NCBI RefSeq assembly: GCF_009914755.1
Contig: NC_060930.1
Source: the human T2T-CHM13v2.0 reference genome, Homo sapiens
DNA: 64,000 bases
Direction: 5' to 3' (one strand)
Each line of letters starts with the position of its first letter. Positions within the stretch are counted from its first letter, which is position 1. Positions 17,280-54,404 of the stretch are shown here, in pieces. Under the pieces are notes generated by a model. The model was given only the letters and a program-made list of their open reading frames with translations. It was not told the origin of the DNA and did no database searches. The position numbers and the translations under genes were made by a program.

Positions 17280-19410
17280 CTCTCTCACCTTCTGGTGATT
17301 CCCTTTTTCTCTCTCCATGGTGAATCTCCTGATGTCTCTAACATGTGTTCTCCCTTTCCTTCATTTACTCTCTATTTTTGGTGTCTTCTAAAGAAGGGGT
17401 GACTGAGGTCAATTTTTTTTTGAGATAGTTCATGTCTGAAAATGCTTTCATTATACCCTAATAAATAATTAATAGTTTTGCTAAGTATAGAAACTAAGTA
17501 TAGAATTCTAAGTTGAAAAAATATTTTTCCTGGATAAATTTGAAAGCATTCTACTGTTGCTTTTTTTATTATCAGTCTACTGCAGAAAACCTGAAGTTAG
17601 ATCCATGATTCTTTGTATATAATTTTTAAAATATTAACTTTCTTAATTTTGTATGATCTTTTCTTTATCTTTAGCATCCTGAACTATACCAATCATAGCC
17701 ATGTATCTACTTTGATTCATTGTCCTGGGTTCATGCTGATTTTTAAAATTTCAGTTTTAGGAAAACTTTCTGCACTATTTCTTTGCTTTCTCTGTTCACT
17801 TTAAACAGCTCGGTTTCTTTTAACATTGGAATTCCTGAACTTTTGAATCTAAATTTATTTTTGCTCTCCTATTTCTCATTTGTTTCATTGTTATCTTGCA
17901 AATATTGTGTTGAGTTTTTCATTTCTGCCCAACTGATTTAAATTCTATGAGTTCTTGTTTTATGGCTGTGATATATGTTACATATTTGAAGACATTACTG
18001 GTAATCTTTTGACATTCCCTTCTTCCCAAAAAGATGTTTCCTTTCAGTCGCATTATTCTGTTTGCTTAGTTAGATTTCTGTCTTTCATATTAGGAGTTTT
18101 CTTCAGATGTTTATTAATTTTAGCAACCTGCTTATGATAAAGAAAGAAAAACTAAAATCTGATTTAGAAGCTCTATATCACTCTACAGCAGGATGGGGAA
18201 GAATACTTACCTAATTTGAGCATTACCATAGATTAATCCAGGTGGCCTATTTGCCGAGGAATCCTTCCAAATGTCCCTATCTTTGGGTCTTTTCTTTTGG
18301 GCCTGTTCGATTCCCCCAGGAAGTGTCTTTTACTTTCCTGGCTGGAGATTAAGGCTCTGACGGCCAGTATTCTGCTAAACATCAATTAAGAGAGTTTAGG
18401 ATCTCTGCGTTCTGCATTCAGAATGACTGTGGTCATTTAATCAAGCTATTTTAAATATAAGGCTCAGTCTTTCAATGGAATCTGGTGTTCTCCTCTAGAG
18501 ATTTGCTGGATTCGCAGCAGGAAAGTTCCTAGGAGTGAAGAAGGATGTAACACAGGATCCACTATTTTTAAGCTACACTTAATACATCTGCCTTAATTTA
18601 TGTACTCTCTTATACTACTAGCTATTAATGTACTTTGTACAGCTGGTTCCTCTGCCTTTTGAGTATTCTCTGGTGTAACTGGTTGGTTCTCAGCTTTTTC
18701 CACTGCCCATTTGGGATGCAACCCTTTCTTTTTTTTTTTTTTAATTGTCTCAGCAGGCAATTTCACTTCTATAGAAGGGTGTACCTCGTGGATGGAGCAA
18801 TGGTGAGAGCACACCTGAGCAAGGGAGAGGAAAGGGTTCTTATTCCTGACACAGGTAGCCCCTACTGTTGTGTTGTTCCCCTGTTGGCTAGGGCTGGAAC
18901 GCACAGTCAAAGCTAATTCCGATTGGCTATTTTAAAGAGAGCAGGCGTAGGAGCCAGAATGGTGGGGCGAGTAGTTTGGCGGGAAGGTCAGTTACAGAAC
19001 AGGTGACTCAGGATGACTCAGGTCAGAGCAGGTGACCAGGGGTGTCTCAGGATGGAGCAGGTGACCAGGGGTGACACAGGATGGAGCAGGTGATAGAGGC
19101 TAGGAGGGGGTTGTTTACTGAAACTAGGGGCAAGGAGATGACGAGAACGAGAAAGTTAAACTTTAAAATGAAGAACAAAGAACAGGGGAGCTGAACATAC
19201 TGATAGAACTCTTTCAAGTCTACTTAGGTAACTATTTGTTTGTTTTTCTGCTTCTAAAATTTTGTTGAAATTTTCTCCTTTCTTATTCTCATTGTTCTTG
19301 AGGTTTCGTGTATTTAAAAAATCTTCTTACTGTAATTGTCATAGTTGAGTAGGGAGCAACGTTAGATTAATATATTCAATACTTCACTGTTACCTGGAAT
19401 AAGAGCCCTC
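17280..19410 (-). mobile_element. Ancient L1ME/HAL1-like 5' region, interrupted by an LTR10 retrocopy
   Basis: T-rich antisense L1M-like sequence ending in a 5'-end-like motif (gtagggagcaac...ttcaatacttcactgttacctggaat). Family uncertain. Confidence 0.45.
18729..19206 (-). mobile_element. LTR10-family (HERV-I) U3-R fragment ending in poly(A)
   Basis: Reverse complement reads tcagtatgttcagctc...cctggtcacctgctc repeats with TGAGTCA...aaaatagccaatcggaattagc...cttctatagaagtgaaattgcc, then A14. Flanked by aaccctttc / aactctttc. Confidence 0.85.
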
Positions 19411-20166
19411 TCTTTAAACAAAATATTATGCAGAAATCTAATACAGGAAGCAAATAAAAACTAGAACTACTCTGGTTCAAATAGAGTGAAGACAGAGCAG
19501 ATCTTGTTCTTGTAATTGAAAGGAATATGATATAATAAGTATTGACAATATTTTCTTCTCACCAAATAAGTTTCTAATTCTATATATAAAGGAAATACTT
19601 TCAGAATAAAACGAATATATGAGTTTTATTTTTAAATCACAAAACGAAGTTCAAGAACATTTTTGAAACTGGGAAGATTCATATTTTAGTATCTGTCAAA
19701 TGATGATAAATTCGGAAGCCAGTGTAATTTATACCCTAGGGGCTGAGGTCTAATTCAACATATTCCAGTTTCTATTTTCTAAAGCTAAAGAAACATGTGT
19801 TACAATGTAGATAGGGAATACTTTCTTAATGAACCATGCTGAACTGTAAGATTTTTAAGACTCCTTTTTAATGCATTACATTACACTGTATCTTGTTTTC
19901 ACATTTATGGTGAGGTTAATATAAAAGAGACATTAAACAAATATATTTCTGCTCTTTACAAAGGATGATTATTGTTTTCTTACATTTCAACTAAAAATTT
20001 CTATAATATTATACTTGCAAGAAGTATAACACTCTTAATGAGCAATACAGTTAACCTTAAGGTTAACTTGCAAAATTTCATGTCTAATTTAGTATCATTA
20101 ACACATTGAAAAATCTCTCCTAAATTTCACTCATCTTGATCAAAATCCATGTTAAAGGTTTTGAAA

Positions 20167-20517
20167 CTACACTTAATACATCTGCCTTATTTTATGCCCC
20201 CACTTATACTACTAGTTATTAATGCACTTTGGACAGCTGGTTCCTCTGCCTTTTGAGGATTCTGTGGTGTAACTGATTGGTTCTCAGCTTTTTCCACTGC
20301 CCATTTGGGATGCAACCCTTTCAAGTCTGCTTAGGTAACTATAATTTGTTCATGTGTTTTTCTACTTCTAAAATTTGGCTGACATTTTCTCCTTATTCTT
20401 GTTGTTCTTGAGGTTTTATGCACTTAAAAAATCTTTCTACTGTAATTATCGTAGTTGAGTAGGGAGCAACATTAGATTCATGTATTCAATACTTCACTGT
20501 TACCTGGAATAAGAGCC
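20167..20517 (+). repeat. Second copy of a ~350-bp local direct duplication (first copy 18573-18728 plus 19216-19407)
   Basis: ctacacttaatacatctgcc...gttacctggaataagagcc aligns collinearly between the copies. Confidence 0.95.
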
Positions 20518-32182: not shown

Positions 32183-33344
32183 TAGAATAAGAGGATTTTT
32201 TTCTCCAAACTTTTTCATTTATTGAATCTTGAGTAACTACAGTAAATCATTATATTACTTTCATTTTAGGATTTGCATTTGCATCTGGTTTGCCTGAATT
32301 TGATCATCAAACTGCCTTCCTTCATTAGACCTAATAAGCCTGTCATGAATCTCTCTCACTGCTTCGTCCAATCTGTGTCAGAGAACCTCTGGTATTAAAA
32401 ATTGCCTTGTGAGGCTCTCTATCTGCCTCTCAATTCCAGCATCCTACCTCCAGTAACCATGTCATTTGTAGATATGAATTCAGATTGTACCAATTTACAG
32501 TATCTAAGTAAATCACAATATTTTTTTAACTTGAATGAAATATTATAAATGTCAGTGAAATATACTTTAAATGTATATTGATTTGACAGATATTCTCTAC
32601 CATTTGAGAAAACCTACATAGAAGCCAATTATTATTTTCAGAAGTGACACAAAACTTGCTGGTAATATAAGACTCAGATTATAGTTGGTAAGTTTTATAG
32701 CATTTAGCAGCTTGAAGCATCAAGGTCTCTTTTTCCTGAACTGCATCAGGGATCTCTACACTGTACGCCTGCCTGAAAAGAGAATAAAATCTCCTACCAG
32801 TGGACCAGGACATCATGTCCTGGGAAAGCACTGGAGGCACATGGACTATACCTTGCATTGTGCCATGAATTTTCTTTTTCTGTGCTTCAGGTTGACTACA
32901 CTCCTCCTCATACTTTCTTTCTCTTTTAAGGAGAAACAATTATCAATTTTTTTTACTAGTTTCTCTGTCACAAGTCATCTTTATTCACACATTCCAAGTT
33001 CTTAGCCTTTTCAAAAGCTTTTGTTATGCTTCCATGTAGACAATTTCTCAATCATTTTGACTTAATTGACTGATCTGTGAGTGGTGATTATTTTTAATTC
33101 ACTTGACCTGCTGAGTAAACTCAAAAAATTAACAAGTAATTTAAAAGAAGTATAGGCAGTAAATCAACCATTATCTGTGGGGAACCTCCCTTGATGTTGT
33201 TTGTATTTGCTACTCTCATTTGTACATGCCATAATCAGGGGGAGAAGCCAAGATGGCCGAATAGGAACAGCTCCCATCTACAGCTCCCAGCATGAGCGAC
33301 GCAGAAGATGGGTGATTTCTGCATTTCCATCTGAGGTACCGGGC

Positions 33345-33689
33345 TCATCTCACTAGGGAGTGCCAGACAGTGGGCGCAGGCCAGTGGGTGCGTGCACCGT
33401 GCGAGGGCCAAAGCAAGGCGAGGCATTGCCTCACTCGGGAAGCGCAAGGGGTCAGGGAGTTCCCTTTCCTAGTCAAAGAAAGAGGTGACGGACAGCACCT
33501 GGAAAATCGGGTCACTCCCACCCGAATACTGCGCTTTTCCGACGGGCTTAAAAAACAGTGCACCATGAGATTATATCCCGCACCTCGCTTGGAGGGTCCT
33601 ACGCCCACGGAGTCTCGCTGATTGCTAGCACAGCTGTCTGAGATCAAACTGCAAGGTGGCAGCGAGGCTGGGGGAGGGGCGCCCGCCAT
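33345..33689 (-). CDS. L1 antisense ORF0, open for 114 codons
   Basis: MAGAPPPASLPPCSLISD... starts at the ATG at 33689 within the provided 137-aa ORF. Expression unknown. Confidence 0.6.
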   Translation of the reverse strand: MAGAPPPASLPPCSLISDSCASNQRDSVGVGPSKRGAGYNLMVHCFLSPSEKRSIRVGVTRFSRCCPSPLSLTRKGNSLTPCASRVRQCLALLWPSHGARTHWPAPTVWHSLVR

Positions 33690-34140
33690 TGCCCAGGCTT
33701 GATTAGGTAAACAAAGCAGCCAGGAAGCTCCAACTGGGTGGAGCCCACCACAGCTCAAGGAGGCCTGCCTGCCTCTGTAGGCTCCACCTCTGGGGGCAGG
33801 GCCCAGACAAAAAGACAGCAGTAACCTCTGCAGACTTAAATGTCCCTGTCTGACAGCTTTGAAGAGAGCCGTAGTTCTCCCAGCACGCAGCTGGAGATCT
33901 GAGAACGGGCAGACTGCCTCCTCAAGTGGGTCCCTGACCCCTGACCCCTGAGCAGCCTAACTGGGAGGCACCCCCCAGCAGGGGCACACTGACACCTCAC
34001 ACGGCAGGGTACTCCAACAGACCTGCAGCTGAGGGTCCTCTCTGTTAGAAGGAAAACTAACAAACAGAAAGGACATCCACACCAAAAACCCATCTGTACA
34101 TCACCATCATCAAAGACCAAAAGTAGATAAAACCACAAAA

Positions 34141-35157
34141 ATGGGGAAAAAACAGAACAGAAAAACTGGAAACTCTAAAAAGCAGAGCACCTCTCCTCCT
34201 CCAAAGGAATGCAGCTCCTCACCAGCAACGGAACAAAGCTGGATGGAGAATGACTTTGAGGAGATGAGAGAAGAAGACTTCAGACGATCAAATTACTCTG
34301 AGCTACGGGAGGACATTCAAACCAAAGGGAAAGAAGTTGAAAACTTTGAAAAAAATTTAGAAGAATGTATAACTAGAATAACCAATACAGAGAAGTGCTT
34401 AAAGGAGTTGATGGAGCTGAAAACCAAGGCTCGAGAACTATGTGAAGAATGCAGAAGTCTCAGGAGCCGATGCAATCAACTGGAAGAAAGGGTATCAGCA
34501 ATGGAAGACGAAATGAATGAAATGAAGTGAGAAGGGAAGGTTAGAGAAAAAAGAATAAAAAGAAATGAGCAAAGCCTCCAAGAAATATGGGACTATGTGA
34601 AAAGACCAAATCTACGTCTGATTGGTGTACCTGAAAGTGATGGGGAGAATGGAACTAAGTGGGAAAACACTCTGCAGGATATTATCCAGGAGAACTTCCC
34701 CAATCTATCAAGGCAGGGCAACGTTCAGATTCAGGAAATACAGAGAACGCCACAAAGATACTCCTCGAGAAGAGCAATTCCAAGACACATAATTGTCAGA
34801 TTCACCAAAGTTGAAATGAAGGAAAAAATGTTAAGGGCAGCCAGAGAGAAAGGTCGGGTTACCCTCAAAGGGAAGCCCATCAGACTAACAGCAGATCTCT
34901 CGGCAGAAACCCTACAAGCCAGAAGAGAGTGGGGGCCAATATTCAACATTCTTAAAGAAAAGAATTTTCATCCCAGAATTTCATATCCAGCCAAACTAAG
35001 TTTCATAAGTGAAGGAGAAATAAAATCCTTTACAGACAAGCAAATGCTGAGAGATTTTGTCACCACCAGGCCTGCCCTAAAAGAGCTCCTGAAGGAAGTG
35101 CTAAACATGGAAAGGAACAACCGGTACCAGCCGCTGCAAAATCATGCCAAAATGTAA
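34141..35157 (+). pseudogene. L1 ORF1p, disrupted
   Basis: MGKKQNRK...QNHAKM with a premature TGA at 34528-34530. Confidence 0.95.
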
Positions 35158-35220
35158 AGACCATCGAGACTAGGAAGAAACTGCATCAACTAACGAGCAA
35201 AATAACCAGCTAACATCATA

Positions 35221-39049
<3,829 letters not shown>

Positions 39050-42000
39050 ACAATGAGATCACATGGACACAGGAAGGGGAATATCACACTCTGGGGACTG
39101 TTGTGGGGTGGGGGGAGGGGGAGGGATAGCATTGGGAGATATACCTAATGCTAGATGAGGAGTTAGTGGGTGCAGCACACCAGCATGGCACACGTATACA
39201 CATGTAACTAACCTGCACAATGTGCACATGTACCCTAAAACTTAAAGTATAATAATATTAAAAAAAAATTTTAATTAATACTTTGAGTTCTTCCAAGGTT
39301 TGTCACAATTCTCAATGAACCACACATCTGTGTTTAGGTTTAATTAATACTCATCCGGACAGTCAGTAATTGGTGAGGAATGTTATTATGCATCTCAAAA
39401 GTAAGTGAATCTATAGGAAATTATAAATAAGAAAAAAATGAGGTTTTATACTTAATAAAAGTATTAATAATAAAGTTCTAGTTCTAGAAATCTATTAAAA
39501 TAAATTGCCAAAATTTAATATTTTTGATAAATGGAGATATGAAAGTTAAATGAATATAAATACATGAATGTCAGTGGATTAAAACTGGACTTGAGCAGTG
39601 ATTAATTAATCTGTAAACATGTATGGATAAATCACAAACCACATATAAATGAACATATGTAGACCCCACAGCTTGCATGATAACCACATAAATCATTTTT
39701 AATTCTATATTTTTAAAGAATACAATAACTAAAAATTATCCCCTGTGAAGCCAAAAAATGTATTTGGTATGAATAAGAAAAATTTTCTGATATTTAGTTA
39801 AAGAACAAATTGAAAGTAGACTTTAGTTTGAGCTCCAATATATTAGCAATGAAATATTGCTGTGGTTGAGGATAAATTTAATATTTGGTCTCAGTAAGAA
39901 ATATTGTTTAATGAAATTGAAATGCCTTATATTTTAAACTAGTAATCCAAATTATTCCAATACAAGTTGTTTAAGAACTGCACTTTGACACACAGTTTAG
40001 TCTGTGTGTAAAATTGTATCTTTGCTATCCTTTGAGAAGCAACGTAATGCAGCGTGAGGGTTTCAGATTCTAATAATCATGAATTTGAATCCAAGCAATT
40101 AATGGTATGAATTTGAGTAAATTACTTGGTCTCTGCGTTTCCACCTGTAGTTTCTAATGTTATGTGGATTTTAAGTAATTATATCTTACGTATCCAGTAC
40201 CATGCCCTCAGATCATTTTGTGGGGAGAAAAGGAGTGGTTACGTCTTTATCTCCCAGCCTTCTTTTCTTGATTTTTGGAGAAAAATTCAAGGTATAACAT
40301 CTCAAAAAATACTATGAATAAAATCAAACCAACAAAAATATTTTAACCCTAAATTTCAAAGTAACTTTAAACCTGACAATTATCTAAATCCATGATATAA
40401 TCAGGGTGGGAGGATGAAGAGCTACATTTAGATCAGAAAATTTTCATATAAATTATTTTCTATAGCAGCTAATATAAAATGTTCATTGGGGAACTTTGCA
40501 CACAGTGGTACTCTCAGGTGTTTATCAATAAAAAATTTGAGAGCCATTATTCTGAAATGAACTCTATGTAAATATTTGTTGATATTCATTTATTTGTGTT
40601 TCCCAGTAGTCTATTAAGAGCTGCAGTGGTTTGGCTGCTTCATAGAATAATGCAATAATAATTGTCTTACGTGCATTGCAAAATATGATATAGGATTATT
40701 ATATTCTCATAAACTTCTTAATGTATTTAACAACCAAAGTTTTAGAAGATTGCATATTTGCTATAGGGCTGCATTACATTCTGTCTTGACATGTGATTTC
40801 AGGTACTTTCAAACTGTTTTAAATGTGTAACATTTATGGTGACTGTTGTGTGTTGTGTTTTAATTTCCCTTTTCAAAAATGTGTAAGTGACCAAGGAGCA
40901 ATTTAACAAACTATAAACATGGTGGTAAATACAATTATAAAATATCACAACGTAGAACAATATCAGAATTGTAAAAAGATTAACAGGTTAAATATAAAAT
41001 GACTCTGTATACACTGATGAAAGTGAATCTCCAGGTGTGATGATTGTGCTCAGGGAGCCAGAGAGTAAAGTGCAATATAAAACTATATTGATAAATATTT
41101 GAGGATTACACTTTATAGAACTGGTAATTTTTTAGTTCCTGTTTCTGTTGCATTGACCATTACAAAATAATTTTTACGAAATAGAATGATGCTATCAAAG
41201 ATTTTATCTTAACTTTCAGATATGACGAAGCAAGATAGCAAGTAAATCAAACTATGTATTTCTCCATAACAGAAAGTAAAATAATCTTTTTAAAAAATAT
41301 GGTATATGTTATTTTTCCTTTAAAGGCAGAGGGCAGAAAATAATTAAAGAGGTATTATCTATGCTTGAATTGCTTATGAAAAAATTAAAATGACATGAAC
41401 ACACTCAAATTGCATTATTACTAAGACTAATAAAATCAGCAATTCTACCAATGACAGTTATTAGAAAATAAAGCAGAATGGGCTATTCATAAAATTATTA
41501 TATTTAACATTGTATCAGCAACATATGTAAACACATTTACTATTTTGTATACATGACACAGAATATTTTGCTTTATATTTGGTTTAAATTCCTCATGTAC
41601 ATATTAGGAATTAACTATAAACATATTTGTTGTTTATAAACAATAAAAATGCTTTATGACTTTTTATTTTATTTAATTTAAAAAAATTCACAGGACAGAA
41701 AAATCAATATTCTTATCAGATTATAATGATTTTGCAAGTCATATTTTACATATGAAAACTTGCCAAGAGATCGGTTATGATGGGACATTAATAAGAAAGT
41801 GTATTACTATAGAAAAAAAGTTTCTGCTGAATATCAGCACAGAGAAATTAGTTTATGGTTAAAGAAACATTCTTCCTTTTCTGATTCTGGAAGATAACCT
41901 CTTGCATTTCTTTTGAGAGGAGATAGCTTCCTCAGTAATTTGGTAGATTCTTGTAATACAATTGTAATAGAAACTGCACATGGCTATTGTAGATCAGGAA

Positions 42001-46109: not shown

Positions 46110-47466
46110 AAAAGCTGATACATCTATGTTATTATCAGAGACAATAGAATTTAAAGCAGAAAACAATACTAGAGAAAAAGAGGAACATTTCATAATAATA
46201 AAATGATTAATTCATTAAGAAGATATAATATTATTAAATGCATATGTAATCAGTAACAGCAAAAAATTCTTAGAACTAAGGCAAGAAATAGATAAATCCA
46301 AATTCACAATCACAGATAAACATAATTACAGTGAAAACAATCATGGTTTAAACCTATATTCTAAAGATCTTTCCTGGTAATTCATATAACAAATAAGTCA
46401 GCAAGGATGTAGAAAATTTGAAAATCATTAATCCATTTGACCTAATTGAGTGTTAGGGAACACTATATGCAACAGTTGTAGAGCTCTCATTATTTTGTGC
46501 ATATGAAACATTTACTAAACAAGAACATTTTCTTGGTGTATTAGGTTATTCTCACATTGCTATAAAGAAATATCAGAGACTGGGAAATTTACAAAGAAGA
46601 GAGACTTAATTGGCTCACGGTTCTGCAAGCTGTACAAGAAGCATGGTCGTATCTACTTCTTGGGAGGCCTCAGGGAGCTTTTTGCTCATGGTGGTAGGCA
46701 AAATGGGAGCAGGCACATCTAATGGCTAGAGCAGGAGAAAGAGAGAGGGGGAAGATGCCACACACTTTTCAATACTCAAACATTGCAGCAACTCACTATC
46801 GAGAGGATAGCACCAAGGGGATGGTGCTAAACCATTCAGGAGAAACCTGCTCCAGTGATCCAGTTACCTCCCACCAGGCTCTATTTCCAATACTGGGGAT
46901 TACATTTCAACATAAGATTTGGGCAGGGACACATATCCAACTATATCACTGGCTCATAAAAAAACTAATAGTAAAATTAAAAGTTTTGTAATCTTTGACT
47001 ACAGGGTATTAATAGAAATCAAGAGCTTAATTAATAATGTAATATCTAGTACATCTGCAAATAATTGAAAATTAAATAACACACTTATAAATTAGCCATA
47101 GTCAGAGAAGAACTACAAAAGAATGTAGAAAACAGTTTATAATAATTTAGGTGTCTATACAAGAAAAGAAAAAAATAAAATTAATGATCTAAGCATTCAC
47201 ATTAATAGGCTTAAAAAAGAGCAGATAGTATGCAAAATGATTTTGAAGTAATAATAAACATTGAAATCAATGAAATGGGAAATAAACAATCATTAGAAAA
47301 ACATTTAAAAGCCAATAATTTGTTCTTTGAAAAAATTAAAAATATTAACTTCTAGCAAAACATCACAAAAATCAGAGAGAATACATATTAACAATATAAT
47401 GATTGAAGGACAATAAATCACTATAATTTATATAGAACAAGTATAATATAAAAATATGAACAATTT
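46110..47466 (+). mobile_element. Old L1M ORF2 fragment (continues at 53856-54010); host of the MSTA and HERV-H insertions
   Basis: Degenerate endonuclease/linker-like sequence (atcagagacaatagaatttaaagc, cattaagaagatataata). Confidence 0.7.
46537..46948 (-). mobile_element. MSTA-type MaLR solo LTR
   Basis: tgtattaggttattctcacattgctataaagaaata...atttgggcagggacacatatccaactatatca. Confidence 0.85.
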
Positions 47467-50400
47467 GGCTGACTCTCTTTTCGGACTCAGCCCGCCTGCA
47501 CCCAGGTGAAATAAACAGCCATGCTGCTCACACAAAGCCTGTTTGGTGGTCTCTTCACACCGACGCACATGAAATTTGGTGCTGTGACTTGGATCAGGGG
47601 ACCTCCCTTGGGAGATCAATCCCCTGTCCTCCTGTTCTTTGCTCTATGAAAAAGATCCACCTGCAAACTCAGGTCCTCAGACCCACCAGCCCAAGGAACA
47701 TCTCACCAATTTTAAATCGGGTAAGCGGCCTCTTCTTACTCTCTTCTCCAACCTCTCTCACTATCCCTCAACCACTTTCTCCTTTCCACTCTTTAATCTC
47801 TCCCTTCTCTTAATTTCAATTCCTTTCATTTTCTGGTAGAGACAAAGGAGACACGTTTTATCTGTGGACCCAAAACTCCGGCGCTGGTCACGGACTGGGA
47901 AGGCAGTCTTCCCTTGGGGTTTAATCATTGCAGGAAAGCCTCTCTGATTATTCACCCACGTTTCAGAGGTGTCAGACCATGCAGGGACACCTGCCTTGGT
48001 CCTTCACCCTTAGCGGCAAGTCCCGCTTTTCTGGGGGAGGTGCAAGTACCCCAGCCTCGTATCTCTGCACCCCGATCCCTTATTTTCACGCCCTAACCTC
48101 TTATATCTCTGCACCCTGATCCCTTATTTCTGTGCCCCAACTTCGTATCTGTGCGCCCCAACCCCTTTCCTGCTTTTCTGGAGGGTAAGAACCCCCGAAC
48201 CACTTCCCTCCGTGTCTCTACTCTCCCTTTTCTTTAAACTTTCCTCCTTCACTATAGGCAATCTTCCACCCTCCATTCCTCCTTCTTCTCCCTTAGCTTG
48301 TGTTCCCAAAAACTTAAAACCTCTTCAACTCACACCTGACCTAAAACCTAAATGCCTTATTTGCTTCTGCAATGCTGCTTGACCCCAATACAAACTCGAC
48401 AGTAGTTCCAAATAGCCAGAAAACCACACTTTCAATTTTTCCATACTGCAAGATCTAAATAATTCTTGTAAAATAGGCAAACAGTCTGAGGTGCCTGACG
48501 TCCAGGCATTCTTTTACACATCGGTCCCTTCCTAGTCTCTGTGCCCAATGTAACTCATCCCAAATCTTCCTCCTTTCCCTCCCGCCTGTCCCCTCAGTCC
48601 CAACTCCAAGTGTTGCTGAGTCTTTCTAATCTTCCTTTTCTACAGACCCATCTGACATCTCCCCTCCTTGCCTGGCTGAGCTAGGTCCCAATTCTTCCTC
48701 AGCCTCCATTCCTCCACCCTATAATCCTTTTATAACCTCCCCTCCTCACACCCGGTCAGACTTACGGTTTTGTTCTGCAACTAGCCCCCCAACCCCAACC
48801 TGCCCAGCAATTTCCTCTTAAAAAGGTGGCTGGAGCTAAAGGCATAGTCAAGGTTGATGCTCCTTTTTCTGTATCCGACCTCTCCCAAATCAGTTAGCGT
48901 TTCGGCTCTTTTTTATCAAATATGAAGAACCCAGCCCAGTTCACGGCTCATTTGGCAGCAACCCTGAGACGCTTTACAGCCCTAGACCCAAAAAGTCAAA
49001 AGGCCGTCTTATTCTCAGTATACATTTTATTACCCAATCCACTCCCAACTTTAAATAAAACTCCAAAAATTAAATTCCAGCCCTCAAACTCCACAACAGG
49101 ACTTAATTAACCTCGCCTTCAAGGTGTAAAATAATAGAAAAAAGGCAATTCCTTGTCTCCACTGTGAGACAAACCGCAGCCATATCTCCAGCACACAAGA
49201 ACTTCCAAACGCCTGAACTGCAGCGGCCAGGCGTTCCTCCAGGCCTGCCTCCCCCAGGAGCTTGCTACAAGTGCCAGAAATCTGGCCACCAGGCCAAGGA
49301 ATGCCTGCAGCCTGAGATTCCTCCTAAGCTGCGTCCCATCTGTGTGGGACCCCACTGAAAATCGGACTGTTCAACTCACCTGGCAGCCACTCCCAGAGCC
49401 CCCAGGACTCTGGCCCAAGGCTCTCTGACTGACTCCTTCCCAGATCTTCTCAGCTTAGCAGCTGAAGACTGACACCGCCCAATCGCCTCGGAAGCCTACA
49501 GGACCATCACAGACGCTCTGGGTAACTCTCACAGTGGAGGGTAAGTCTGTCCCCTTCTTAATCAATACGGAGGCTACCCACTCCACATTACCTTCTTTTC
49601 AAGGGCCTGTTTCCCTTGCCTCCATAACTGTTGTGGGTATTGACGACCAGGATTGTAAACCTCTTAAAACTCCTGAAATCTGGTGCCAATTTAGACAATA
49701 CTCTTTTAAGCACTCCTTTTTAGTTATCCCCACCTGCCGAGTTCCCTTATTAGGCCGAGACACTGTAACTAAATTATCTGCTTCCCTGACTATTCCTGGG
49801 CTACAGCTGCGCCTCATTGCCACCTTTTCCCCCAGTTCAGAGCCTCCTTCACATCCTCCTCTTTTATCCCCCCACCTTAACCCACAAGTATAGGATACCT
49901 CTACTCCCTCCTTGGTGACAGATCATGCACCCCTTACCATCTCATTAAAACCTAATCACCCTTACCCCACTCAATGCCAATATCCCATCCCACAGCACGC
50001 TTTAAAAAGATTAAAGCCTGTTATCATTCACCTGCTACAGCATGGCCTTTTAAAGCCTATAAACTCTCCTTACAATTCCCCAATTTTACCTGTCCTAAAA
50101 CCAGACAAGCCTTACAGTTAGCTCAGGATCTGCGCCTTATCAACCAAATTGTTTTGCCTATCCACCCCGTGATGCCAAACCCATATACTCTCCTATCCTC
50201 AATACCTGCCTCTACAACCCATTATTCTGTTCTAGATCTCAAACATGCTTTCTTTACTATTCCTTTGCACCCTTAATCCCAGCCTCTCTTTGCTTTCACT
50301 TGGACTGACCCTGACACCCATCAAGCTCAGCAAATTACCTAGGCTGTACTGCCACAAAGCTTCACAGACAGCCCCCCTTACTTCAGTCAAGCCCAAATTT

Positions 50401-53253
50401 CTTCCTCATCTGTTACCTATCTCGGCATAATTCTCATAAAAACACATGTGCTCTCCCTGCCAATCGTGTCCGACTGATCTCTCAAACCCCGGTACCTTCT
50501 ACAAAACAACAACTCCTTTCCTTCCTAGGCATGGTTAGCATGGTCAGAATTCTTACACAAGAGCCAGGAAAACACCCTGTAGCCTTTCTGTCCAAACAAC
50601 TTGACCTTACTGTTTTAGCCTAGCCCTCATGTCTGCGTGCAGCAGCTGCCACTGCTTTAATACATTTAGAGGCCCTCAAAATCACAAACTATGTTCAACT
50701 CACTCTCTACAGTTCTCATAACTTCCAAAATCTATTTTCTTCCTCATACCTGACGCATATAATTTCTGCTTCCCAGCTCCTTCAGCTATACTCACTCTTT
50801 GTTGAGTCTCCCACAATTACCACTGTTCCTGGCCCGGACTTCAATCCGGCCTCCCACATTATTCCGGATACCACACCTGACCCTCATGACTGCATCTCTC
50901 TGATCCACCTGACGTTCACCCCCTTTCCCCACATTTCCTTCTTCCCTGTTTCTCACCCTGATCACACTTGGTTTATTGATGGAAGTTCCACCAGGACTAA
51001 TCGCCACTCACCAGAAAAAGCAGGCTATGCTATAGTATCTTCCACATCTATCATTGAGGTTACCACTCTGCCCCCCTCCACTACCTCTCAGCAAGCCGAA
51101 CTAGTTGCCTTAAGCCCTCACTCTTGCAAAAGGACTACGTGTCAATATCTATACTGATTCTAAATATGCCTTTCATATTCTGCACCACCATGTGGTCATA
51201 TGGGCTGAAAGAGGTTTTCTCACTACACAAGGGGTCCTCCATCATTAATGCCTTTTTAATAAAAACTCTACGCAAGGCCACTTTACTTCCAAAGGAAGCT
51301 GGGGTCATTCACTGCAAGGGGCATCAAAAGACATCAGATCCCATTGCTCTAGGCAATGTTTATGCTGATAAGGTGGCTAGACAAGCAGCTAGCTCTCCAA
51401 CTTCTGTCCCTCACAGCCAGTTTTTCTCCTTCACATCGGTCACTCCCACCTACTCCCCTGCTGAAACTTCCACCTATCAATCTCTTCCCACACAAGGCAA
51501 ATGGTTCTTAGACCAAGGAAAATATCTCCTTCCAGCCTCACAGTCCCATTCTATTCTGTCGTCATTTCATAACCTCTTCCATGTAGGTTACAAGCCGCTA
51601 GCCCGTCTCTTAGAACGTCTCATTTCCTTTCCGTCATGGAAATCTATCCTCAAGGAGATCACTTCTCAGTGTTCCATCTGCTATTCTACTACCCCTCATG
51701 GATTGTTCAGGCCTCCTCCCTTTCCTACTCATCAAGCTCTGGGATTTGCCCCTGCCCAGGACTGGCAAATTGACTTTACTCACATGCCTTGAGTCAGAAA
51801 ACTAAAATATATCTTAGTCTGGGTAGACATTTTCACTGGATGGGTAGAGGCCTTTCCTACAGGGTCTGAGAAGGCCAACACAGTCATTTCTTCCCTTCTG
51901 TCAGACATAATTCCTCAGTTTAGCCTTCCCACCTCTATACAGTCTGATAACGGACCAACCTTTATTAGTCAAATCAGCCAGGCATCTTTTCAGGCTCTTA
52001 GTATTCAGTGACAGACTAACGGTCTATTAAAAACATGCCTCACCAAGCTCAGCCACCAACTTAAAAAGGACTGGACAATACTTTTACCACTTTCGCTTCT
52101 CAGAATTCAGGCCTGTCCTTGGGATGCTACAAGGTACAGCCCATTTAAGCTCCTGTATAGACACTCCTTTTTATTAGGCCCCAGTCTCATTCCAGACACC
52201 AGACCAACTTAGACTGTGCCCCAAAAAGTTGTCATCCCTACTATCTTCTGTCTAGTCATACTCCTATTCACCGTTCTCAACTACTCATACATGACCTGCT
52301 CTTGTTTACACTGCCAGTTTACACTGTTTCTCCAAGCCATCACAGCTGGTATTTCCTGGTGCTATCCCCAAACTGCCACTCTAAACTCATGAAGTAAATA
52401 AATAATCTTTGCTGGCAGGACTATGCTGAATCTCCTTAGGCACTCTCTAATCAGATGTCCTGGGTCCTCCCAATTCTTAGACCTTTTATACCTGTTTTTC
52501 TCCTTCTCTTATTCCGTTGAGTTTTTCAATTCATACAAAACCGTATCCAGGCCATCATCAATAATTCTACACAAATGTTTCTTCTAACAACCCCACAATA
52601 TCACCCCTTACCACAAAATCTTCCTTCAGCTTAATCTCTCCCACTCTAGGTTCCCACACCACCCCTAATCCCACTGGAAGCAGCCCTGAGAAACATCACC
52701 CATTCTCTCTCTCCATACCACCCCCCAAAAATTTTCGCTGCCCCAACACTTCAACACTATTTTATTTTATTTTTCTTATTAATATAAGAAGGCAGGAATG
52801 TCAGGCCTCTGAGCTCAAGCCAAGTCATCACATCCCCTGTGACTTGCACGTATATATGTCCAGATGGCCTGAAGTAACTGAAGAATCACAAAAGAAGTGA
52901 ATATGCCCTGCCCCACCTTAACTGATGACATTTCACCACAAAAGAAGTGTAAATGGCCAGTCCTTGACTTAAGTGATGACATTACCCTGTGAAAGTCCTT
53001 TCTGTGGCTCATCCTGGCTCAAAAACCACCCCCACTGAGCACCTTGCGACCCCCACTCCTGCCCGCCAGAGAACAAACCCCCTTTGACTGTAATTTTCCT
53101 TTACCTACCCAAATCTTATAAAATGGCCCCACCCTTATCTCCCTTCACTGACTCTCTTTTCCCACTCAGCCCACCTGCACCCAGGTGAAATAAACAGCCA
53201 TGTTGCTCACACAAAGCCTGTTTGGTGGTCTCTTCACAGGGACACGCATGAAA
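47467..53253 (+). mobile_element. HERV-H: R-U5 only at the 5' end (47468-47574), His PBS, gag-pro-pol remnants, deleted env, complete 3' LTR7
   Basis: PBS tggtgctgtgacttggat at 47577-47594; zinc knuckle CYKCQKSGHQAKEC; protease FLINTEAT (catalytic motif mutated); RT DLRLINQ and LDLKHAFF; integrase HNLFH..CSIC and WQIDFTHMP. Confidence 0.97.
52799..53253 (+). promoter_or_regulatory. LTR7 3' LTR with TATA box (53117-53123) and AATAAA
   Basis: TGTCAGGCCTCTGAG...GCATGAAA, preceded by the polypurine tract agaaggcaggaa. Confidence 0.93.
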
Positions 53254-53397
53254 GGCCCCTTTCCGGTAACAAAGGTGCTATCAAGAAACAGAGAGGGGTT
53301 GGTTGATGCTTCTTAACCTTGTTAATATCAAATTTTCTGCATCTGAGTAGTGCTTTGAAAACCCCGGTAAGGTGTAAGACATGGGAACTTTTGTGCC

Positions 53398-53838
53398 TAT
53401 TGGAAACCAGAATATGCCACACCAAGGTATACAGGATGATTGAGCCAAAGGCAATGAAGGAGGAGATGCAGGAAAGCACTCTGCCCTCCATGTGCCTAAA
53501 AGCAGGATATAAATGTGCAAAGGCAAAGGGTTTCCATGCCCTCACCTACCAGAGAGAAGAAATGTTAACCCTTTAAGACAACATTAGCCGGTGGAGATGG
53601 TAGCAGTGGAATCTACATTAACCAGCTTTCCTAACTTGCCGTTAATTGCCCTTAGTTTACCTTTCCACAAGTTGCTATTCTGCACATTCAAAGTTCCTTT
53701 CCTTTGTTTTGTCGCTTCTCTAAAATTTTCCTTTACTTTGTTAACGATGCTATATAAGCTGTAATTCAAATTCACCTCTATGAGAATTACTCATTCCCTG
53801 GTATCTCCCATGTATATATAAAATATACATGTTAATAA
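53398..53838 (+). mobile_element. MER34-like LTR truncated at its AATAAA (part of the transduced flank)
   Basis: gaaaccagaatatgccac...gcctaaaagcagga...atatacatgttaataaa matches the recalled MER34 group. Confidence 0.7.
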
Positions 53839-54404
53839 AAAAATATGAACAATTTCTTGTCAAAATTGGAGGGCATATATTATTTAGTTTAAGGATGTAA
53901 TATAAAACTATAGCAATCAAGATAAAGTGGTATCGGCATGAGGATAAACAAATGAATTGATTGAACAGAATAAAGAGTCCTGAAGTGGATCTACAATTGA
54001 TTTTTGACCAATTTGTTGAGGTACAATAGTCAGCAGTCTCTGAATTGAAGATGTAGAGCTGTGGCTCTGGGGATTTCAAAGCAGAAAAAGTTCACAGGAA
54101 AGAGTTCTATAAAAGAGAAAACTGCACATGGAAATAACTTGGGAAATTTGTAAAGTCTACTCTTTAGGAATCTGTAAATAGTTTTAATTAATGAATGTGT
54201 ATAATTAATGTGTATTTTAATTAATTAATGTATATAATTAATGTATGTAATTAATGAATGTGTATAAGAAACCTAAACAAGGGTAGCAAAAGAACCACAC
54301 AAAATAATTAGGGCAAATTATACTTAAAGTTCACAAAGGGCAGAAAATAATACCTGTTTACAATAGCTGAAGTGGAAAATCTTTTTATTCCAGTGATCAG
54401 TTAG

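What the first reader, a model, noticed from the sequence alone, without database searches (positions are those of the whole stretch)
18720..19215. Polyadenylated LTR10 U3-R fragment inserted by L1-type TPRT, a second ERV retrocopy in the window
Seen: on the minus strand the LTR10 sequence stops about 20 nt after its poly(A)-signal-like AGTGAA and continues as A14 (T run 18729-18742). It has no U5 and a truncated U3 start. The flanks are aaccctttc (18720-18728) and aactctttc (19207-19215), and the target reads TTTC/AA, a typical L1 endonuclease site. Inference: a 5'-truncated processed copy of an HERV-I/LTR10 transcript, not a solo LTR. Two independent L1-mobilised ERV RNAs within 30 kb suggest this route is under-annotated outside HERV-W.
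Basis: partly seen in the sequence, partly recalled or inferred. Interest (0 to 1): 0.7.

Follow-up and report, generated by a model that had tools for sequence, protein, structure and literature searches.

The report
L1-copied retroviral LTR10 RNA end
Next to the GRIK2 gene sits a short piece of an old human retrovirus end-repeat with an A-tail and a duplicated landing site, likely pasted in from RNA by the LINE-1 jumping gene; such copies are known for other retrovirus groups, and this group has a few more of them.

Summary
Observation confirmed. Window 18729-19206 (minus strand) is an LTR piece that lacks about 89 nt of U3 and all of U5, ends 19 nt after its hexamer in A14, and lies between 9-nt direct repeats. 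A local duplicate (20159-20517) preserves the empty site, with one copy of the 9-mer and a TTTC/AA nick site. Of 29 relatives, 28 keep U5; the 29th (chr1) is itself an env-U3-R retrocopy with a 16-nt duplication. Four more tailed LTR10-family ends were found (chr2, 4, 12, 22), one behind a full L1 and one behind host sequence. The route (L1 target-primed reverse transcription) is therefore well supported, but this copy's template, proviral or read-through RNA, is not settled. The second retrocopy is also real: HERV-H 47467-53838 has an exact 17-nt duplication, starts at R and carries 585 nt of flank from a chr4 provirus. Tailed ends are roughly 1-3% of LTR10 and about 2% of LTR7 ends, against two thirds of HERV-W elements in print. 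The mechanism is known (HERV-W, HERV-H, HML-2); my searches found no LTR10 case. New member of a known kind, moderate interest.

The parts
18720..18728 (.). Target-site duplication, copy at the tail end (aaccctttc), identical to the empty site
18729..18742 (-). A14 tail (T run on +) in place of U5
   Evidence: relatives have only 0-3 A here
18743..19206 (-). LTR10-family U3 (5'-truncated) and R; best relatives 88-89% identical
18762..18767 (-). AGTGAA, this copy's variant of the AGTAAA hexamer of relatives, 19 nt before the tail; likely the poly(A) signal
   Evidence: tails of five other copies start 14-19 nt after the same hexamer or within that range
18994..19093 (.). 29-bp tandem repeat, 3.4 copies, with two intact AP-1 motifs (19004, 19014)
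   Evidence: repeat described as specific to LTR10A/LTR10F in PMC466953 section 13
19207..19215 (.). Target-site duplication, 5'-junction copy (aactctttc), one mismatch to the empty site
20159..20517 (+). Local duplicate of both flanks without the insert; empty site at 20314-20322, reading TTTC/AA
   Evidence: 31 mismatches in 352 aligned sites
47450..47466 (+). 17-nt target duplication, left copy, of the second retrocopy
47467..53253 (+). HERV-H copy that starts at R (33 nt after the TATA-like box by homology with its 3' LTR) and has a complete 3' LTR
53254..53838 (+). 585 nt of 3' flank carried from a chr4 HERV-H provirus (97%), ending at the flank's AATAAA with no real tail
53839..53855 (+). 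17-nt target duplication, right copy, exact

Best explanation
The insert is a 5'-truncated LTR10 U3-R piece with an A14 tail and a 9-nt target duplication, likely made when LINE-1 ORF2p nicked TTTC/AA and reverse-transcribed an RNA polyadenylated at the LTR10 site, most likely a HERV-I proviral RNA. Shown: structure, empty site, loss of U5 and of the U3 start, sister copies with the same anatomy. Inferred: cleavage directed by AGTAAA; priming of the T-rich nick on the tail; premature end of cDNA after about 480 nt; second nick 9 nt away. Template odds: proviral RNA about 55%, read-through RNA ending in a solo LTR10 about 40%. Age is inferred at roughly 20-30 million years (8.8% divergence between the flank duplicates, 7.6% terminal branch; rates recalled). 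The copy cannot replicate; it keeps the promoter region and two AP-1 motifs and may act as an enhancer (untested).
For: Empty-site duplicate gives a clean insertion with a 9-nt duplication and no flank loss. 28 of 29 relatives keep U5 and have no A run here. Same-subfamily chr1 copy is env-PPT-U3-R with a degenerate A tail and a 16-nt duplication with one mismatch at T|AAAA. A chr22 copy is a twin: truncated in U3, A8, 14-nt duplication at TT|AAAA. A chr12 copy is env-U3-R-A12. Env upstream of a relative matches Pfam TLV_coat (E 7.8e-5, just under the curated cut-off). The published hallmarks of HERV processed pseudogenes (U3-R end, tail, TT/AAAA, 5-15 nt duplication; PMC5537654 passages) are met.
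Against: No internal viral sequence and no 5' R-U5 end in this copy, so the RNA is unidentified. No source found: best relatives are 88-89% identical, against 87% among themselves. One duplication copy has a mismatch. An intact LTR10 on chr14 has A20 at this same position with U5 retained, so A runs can expand here without retrotransposition. The chr12 copy's duplication is not established. No primate orthologue could be examined.
Confidence: 0.9

Rival explanations
1. Same L1 mechanism, non-viral template: an L1 read through its own weak signal, or a host RNA ran on, to a solo LTR10 poly(A) site, and truncation left only the LTR piece (orphan 3' transduction or truncated host retrocopy).
For: Both routes occur in this family. 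chr2: a full-length L1 ends in about 25 nt of LTR10 R plus A14, inside a 13-15 nt duplication. chr4: a 4.25-kb insert with a 17-nt duplication holds antisense keratin-II and LRRC37 pieces, then a full U3-R and A14. The nearest tree neighbour, chr2:86.697 Mb, is a solo LTR today.
Against: The only other tailed copy of this subfamily that reaches past U3 (chr1) has env upstream. The nearest neighbour sits in an old degraded L1, not behind a young one. A solo LTR today may have been a provirus when the RNA was made.
Confidence: 0.4
2. An ordinary solo LTR whose short A tract expanded by slippage and which then lost U5 and the U3 start by two deletions.
For: Intact LTR10 on chr14 with A20 at this position; nine other intact LTR10 loci have a templated A8-A11 tract here.
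Against: Those tracts belong to another subfamily; none of the 28 intact close relatives has one. Two deletions would have to end exactly at the element edges, leave both flanks whole and create a 9-nt duplication at an L1-type site.
Confidence: 0.04
3. RNA- or DNA-templated repair of a chromosome break without the L1 endonuclease, possibly in the same event that made the 359-nt local duplicate.
For: The duplicated segment is roughly centred on the insertion site (164 and 195 nt). The 5' junction reads like a short LTR motif found 2 nt upstream in one relative and 25 nt upstream in others, which suggests microhomology.
Against: Tail at the poly(A) site, duplication rather than deletion at the target, and a TTTC/AA site are what target-primed reverse transcription gives; 5' microhomology is common in L1 insertions too (recalled).
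Confidence: 0.06

Closest known systems
HERV-W processed pseudogenes (PMC5537654 and PMC5016936, passages read; Pavlicek 2002 not held, seen only as a reference)
   Same: U3-R 3' end without U5, poly(A) tail, TT/AAAA-type target, duplication within 5-15 nt.
   Different: Different group (LTR10). Only 464 nt of LTR, no internal sequence, no 5' R-U5. About 1-3% of LTR10 ends here, against more than two thirds of HERV-W members.
Retrotransposed HERV-H (Goodchild 1995, seen only as cited) and HML-2 2q32.1 rec-like retrocopy (PMC3590776, passages read)
   Same: L1-type copy of an ERV RNA outside HERV-W, with short tail and duplication, missed by standard annotation.
   Different: Those are described as spliced RNAs with internal sequence. 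The window's HERV-H is about 5.8 kb, keeps a full 3' LTR and carries host flank from a traceable source.
L1 3' and orphan transductions (recalled; chr2 example found here)
   Same: Same enzyme, tail, target and truncation; an orphan transduction ending at an LTR would look identical.
   Different: No L1 sequence in this insert and no source L1 found.
LTR10A/LTR10F AP-1 enhancers (PMC466953, section 13 and passages read)
   Same: 28-30 bp repeat with AP-1 motifs; overlaps a RefSeq enhancer (18239-19438, hub annotation).
   Different: Not integrase-made; only two intact motifs; activity untested. The paper's main text has no hit for 'polyadenyl', 'truncated' or 'GRIK2'; its supplements were too large to read.

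Membership tests
L1-made processed ERV copy | 3' LTR ends at R, U5 absent | tested here: met
   28 of 29 relatives continue 49-55 nt; this copy does not
L1-made processed ERV copy | Non-templated A tail 10-30 nt after a poly(A) signal | tested here: met
   A14, 19 nt after AGTGAA; AGTAAA in 26 of 29 relatives
L1-made processed ERV copy | Target duplication of 5-15 nt or more | tested here: met
   9 nt, proven by the empty-site duplicate
L1-made processed ERV copy | TT/AAAA-type target | tested here: met
   Empty site reads TTTC/AA on + (TT|GAAA on the insert strand), a one-base variant
L1-made processed ERV copy | Template was a proviral RNA (internal sequence or 5' R-U5) | tested here: inconclusive
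   Cut inside U3; sister copies show proviral, host and L1 templates
L1-made processed ERV copy | Empty orthologous site in older primate lineages | not testable with these tools
   No primate genomes held (no relatives)
Solo LTR | Complete U3-R-U5 with TG...CA ends and a 4-6 nt duplication | tested here: not met
   Both ends missing; relatives such as L002 show the complete form
LTR10 (HERV-I) | Match to Dfam/Repbase LTR10 models | not testable with these tools
LTR10A/LTR10F | 28-30 bp tandem repeat with AP-1 motif | tested here: met
   29 bp x 3.4 with two motifs against PMC466953 section 13; which of the two subfamilies was not tested
Retroviral LTR | Relatives follow env and a polypurine tract | tested here: met
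   L013, L018, L023, L025, L026; TLV_coat E 7.8e-5 for one of three frames tried
L1 orphan transduction | Source locus directly behind an L1 of matching age | tested here: inconclusive
   No source identified among 29 relatives; 11 further listed matches and most of 694 candidates were not examined

The most novel reading that the evidence does not exclude
L1 copying of ERV RNA is a general leak across HERV groups, not a HERV-W peculiarity: dozens of LTR10 and LTR7 elements now read as damaged solo LTRs or proviruses are retrocopies, some ERV-promoter-driven copies carry host 3' flank with them (a traceable chr4 to chr6 HERV-H transduction here), and this route placed an AP-1 enhancer 3.6 kb behind GRIK2.
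Probability: 0.45. Interest if true: 0.55.

Novelty: new member of a known kind. Interest (0 to 1): 0.38.

Why it matters
Reviews call HERV-W the sole group mobilised by L1 and treat the determinants as open (PMC5537654, PMC5775608; passages). A set of LTR10 and LTR7 retrocopies gives a low-rate comparison class, which turns the question from 'why only HERV-W' into 'why so much more often'. The tails also map the LTR10 poly(A) site as used in the germ line, 14-19 nt after AGTAAA. Truncated LTR10 pieces need an L1-aware reading: some record L1 transductions or host RNAs. The single locus is a fixed fossil with no shown function.

Tried and rejected
I first read the HERV-H as a provirus with a 5' deletion, because its 3' LTR is complete and has no tail; the 17-nt repeat 585 nt further on overturned this. 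I first counted 29 of 29 relatives as intact; L026 proved to be tailed. Pattern hits dropped after inspection: 14 distinct loci = this copy, 2 tailed, 7 intact with a templated A tract, 3 with no LTR match, 1 unclear (chr8:144.8 Mb, no duplication within 1.5 kb), 11 loci, new ones = 2 tailed, 2 intact, 1 Alu inserted in an LTR, 1 without an LTR upstream, 10 loci, new ones = chr14 (intact, A20) and chr2:3.68 Mb (not inspected). Source hunt: tree support for chr2:86.697 Mb is 93/70, not starred, and it shares 3 of 22 minority sites against 4 for another copy; it is the only LTR10 of 7 hits with the short 5' junction. Suggestive only. No source locus for the chr2 L1 transduction was found by an exact pattern. 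Target duplications of the tailed HERV-H loci were not tested: only their 3' 900 nt were held. Seven full-text searches bearing on LTR10 or non-W retrocopies plus searches listed no paper on LTR10 retrocopies or on HERV-H flank transduction; I saw listings for most, and the library lacks Pavlicek 2002 and most subscription papers.

Full report
Observation. The coordinates are right. On the minus strand the element reads 9-nt repeat, one extra C, 463 nt of LTR, A14, 9-nt repeat. A similarity search of the genome scored 40 of 694 candidates and gave 41 matches; 30 loci were fetched, this one included. Of the 29 others, 28 continue 49-55 nt past the junction to an ...AACA-type end, and the commonest 5' extension is 89 nt. 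None of these 28 has an A run at the junction. They carry AGTAAA (26 of 29 by script) where this copy has AGTGAA, followed by a GT/T-rich stretch in U5, the layout of a poly(A) site (layout recalled).

The empty site is in the window. A self-comparison showed that 20159-20517 duplicates 18565-18728 (92%) and 19207-19407 (86%) with no insert. It holds one copy of the 9-mer followed by aa, so the insertion duplicated 9 nt, lost no flank, and hit TTTC/AA. The duplicate has no other genomic match and differs at 31 of 352 aligned sites. This replaces, in part, the orthologue check that could not be run.

Family.

Sister copies. Five more tailed, U5-less LTR10-family ends were found. chr1:104.953 Mb, same subfamily: cut inside env, env-PPT-U3-R, degenerate tail, 16-nt duplication with one mismatch. 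chr22:33.019 Mb: cut inside U3, A8, 14-nt duplication at TT|AAAA. chr12:60.49 Mb: env-U3-R-A12, duplication not established. chr4:106.045 Mb: 4.25-kb insert, 17-nt duplication, antisense keratin-II and LRRC37 pieces, then a full U3-R and A14. chr2:23.026 Mb: full-length L1, about 25 nt of LTR10 R, A14, 13-15 nt duplication. The tails start 14-19 nt after the hexamer where it is sharp. So two copies come from proviral RNA, one from host RNA, one from an L1 transduction, and two, this one included, are cut too short to tell.

Rate. A strict anchor matches 233 LTR10-family ends; two tailed copies (chr4, chr12) fit it, about 1%. In the similarity-ranked sample 1 of 29 is tailed, about 3%. Both are rough: exact patterns miss mutated copies and eroded tails (this copy and chr1 fail the strict anchor). 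On 2331 LTR10 elements (PMC466953, passage) that would be some tens of copies (inference). Against the reading: an intact chr14 LTR10 has A20 at the same position, and nine intact loci of another subfamily have a templated A tract there, so a tail alone is no proof.

Source. Not found. The copy is 88% identical to its seven best relatives, which are 87% identical to each other. It pairs weakly (93/70) with a solo LTR at chr2:86.697 Mb, which is the only LTR10 among 7 pattern hits with a shortened U3 junction resembling this copy's 5' junction. The mismatch in the 5' repeat may therefore be LTR-derived microhomology rather than decay. This is a lead, not a result.

Second retrocopy. The HERV-H at 47467 starts where R begins and its 3' LTR is complete. 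An exact 17-nt repeat lies at 47450-47466 and 53839-53855. The 585 nt between the LTR and that repeat match chr4:16,985,554-16,986,128 at 97%, directly behind a HERV-H provirus with a complete 5' LTR and a 5-nt duplication. The copy stops at an AATAAA in that flank with at most two extra A, so priming was likely internal, or the tail eroded. It is much younger than the LTR10 copy (3% against 9-12% divergence), so the two events are independent. Genome-wide, a tailed LTR7 pattern gave 174 rows; the 100 listed cover 15 distinct loci on chr1-7, against 1227 U5-bearing ends, about 2% by extrapolation. Four of four checked have env-side sequence, A14-35 and no U5; their duplications were not tested. 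By my arithmetic, a few hundred such copies in 3.1 Gb would give a few pairs within 30 kb by chance, so the neighbourhood itself is weak evidence.

Mechanism. Shown: anatomy, empty site, sister copies. Inferred from established L1 biology: ORF2p nicks TTTC/AA, primes on the tail, stops after about 480 nt, and a second nick 9 nt away gives the duplication. Confidence 0.9 for this route; about 55:40 for proviral against read-through RNA. The element lies antisense to GRIK2, 3.6 kb past its last exon (hub annotation), so its poly(A) signal cannot serve GRIK2. It overlaps a RefSeq enhancer; whether the LTR piece causes that activity is untested, and the supplements of PMC466953, which may list this locus, could not be read.

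What is known. PMC5537654 (abstract and passages) gives the hallmarks, the figure of more than two thirds for HERV-W, and calls HERV-W the sole group so mobilised. PMC3590776 (passages) reports an HML-2 retrocopy and cites earlier HERV-H and HERV-W cases. [quoted passage not shown] PMC5016936, PMC5775608 and PMC6995185 were read as passages; PMC3758188 gave reference lines only. Pavlicek 2002, the paper most likely to list other groups, is not held. The searches listed no report of LTR10 retrocopies.

Verdict. Real, correctly read, a new member of a known kind. The locus is a fossil; the added value is the small cross-group survey and the traceable HERV-H flank transduction. Interest 0.38.

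Noticed in passing
window 47450-53855: HERV-H retrocopy with an exact 17-nt duplication, starting at R and carrying 585 nt of flank from its source provirus at chr4:16.979-16.986 Mb; ends at AATAAA without a true tail. Overlaps RefSeq enhancers 52088-53876.
   Followed up: yes
window 20159-20517: Unique 359-nt local duplicate centred on the insertion site, with a short inverted repeat at its right edge; how it arose is unexplained.
   Followed up: partly
L076:2735-8820 (chr2:23.020-23.026 Mb): Full-length L1 with a 25-nt 3' transduction of an LTR10 R end; source not found.
   Followed up: partly
L071:2842-7115 (chr4:106.041-106.045 Mb): 4.25-kb retrocopy of an RNA antisense to keratin-II and LRRC37 pieces, polyadenylated in an LTR10-family element.
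   Followed up: partly
L085:764-1296 (chr14:78.178 Mb): Intact LTR10 with A20 at the poly(A) position and U5 retained.
   Followed up: partly
L030:1500-2480 (chr9:38.195 Mb): Two LTR10 copies head to head, one apparently inserted into the other.
   Followed up: no
L046:700-1310 on the minus strand (chr8:144.82 Mb): LTR10-family element with a 38-bp tandem array over 1 kb long and an A8 about 40 nt after the hexamer.
   Followed up: no
window 33240-39268: Near full-length L1, 95.6% identical to the chr2 L1 over 6 kb.
   Followed up: no
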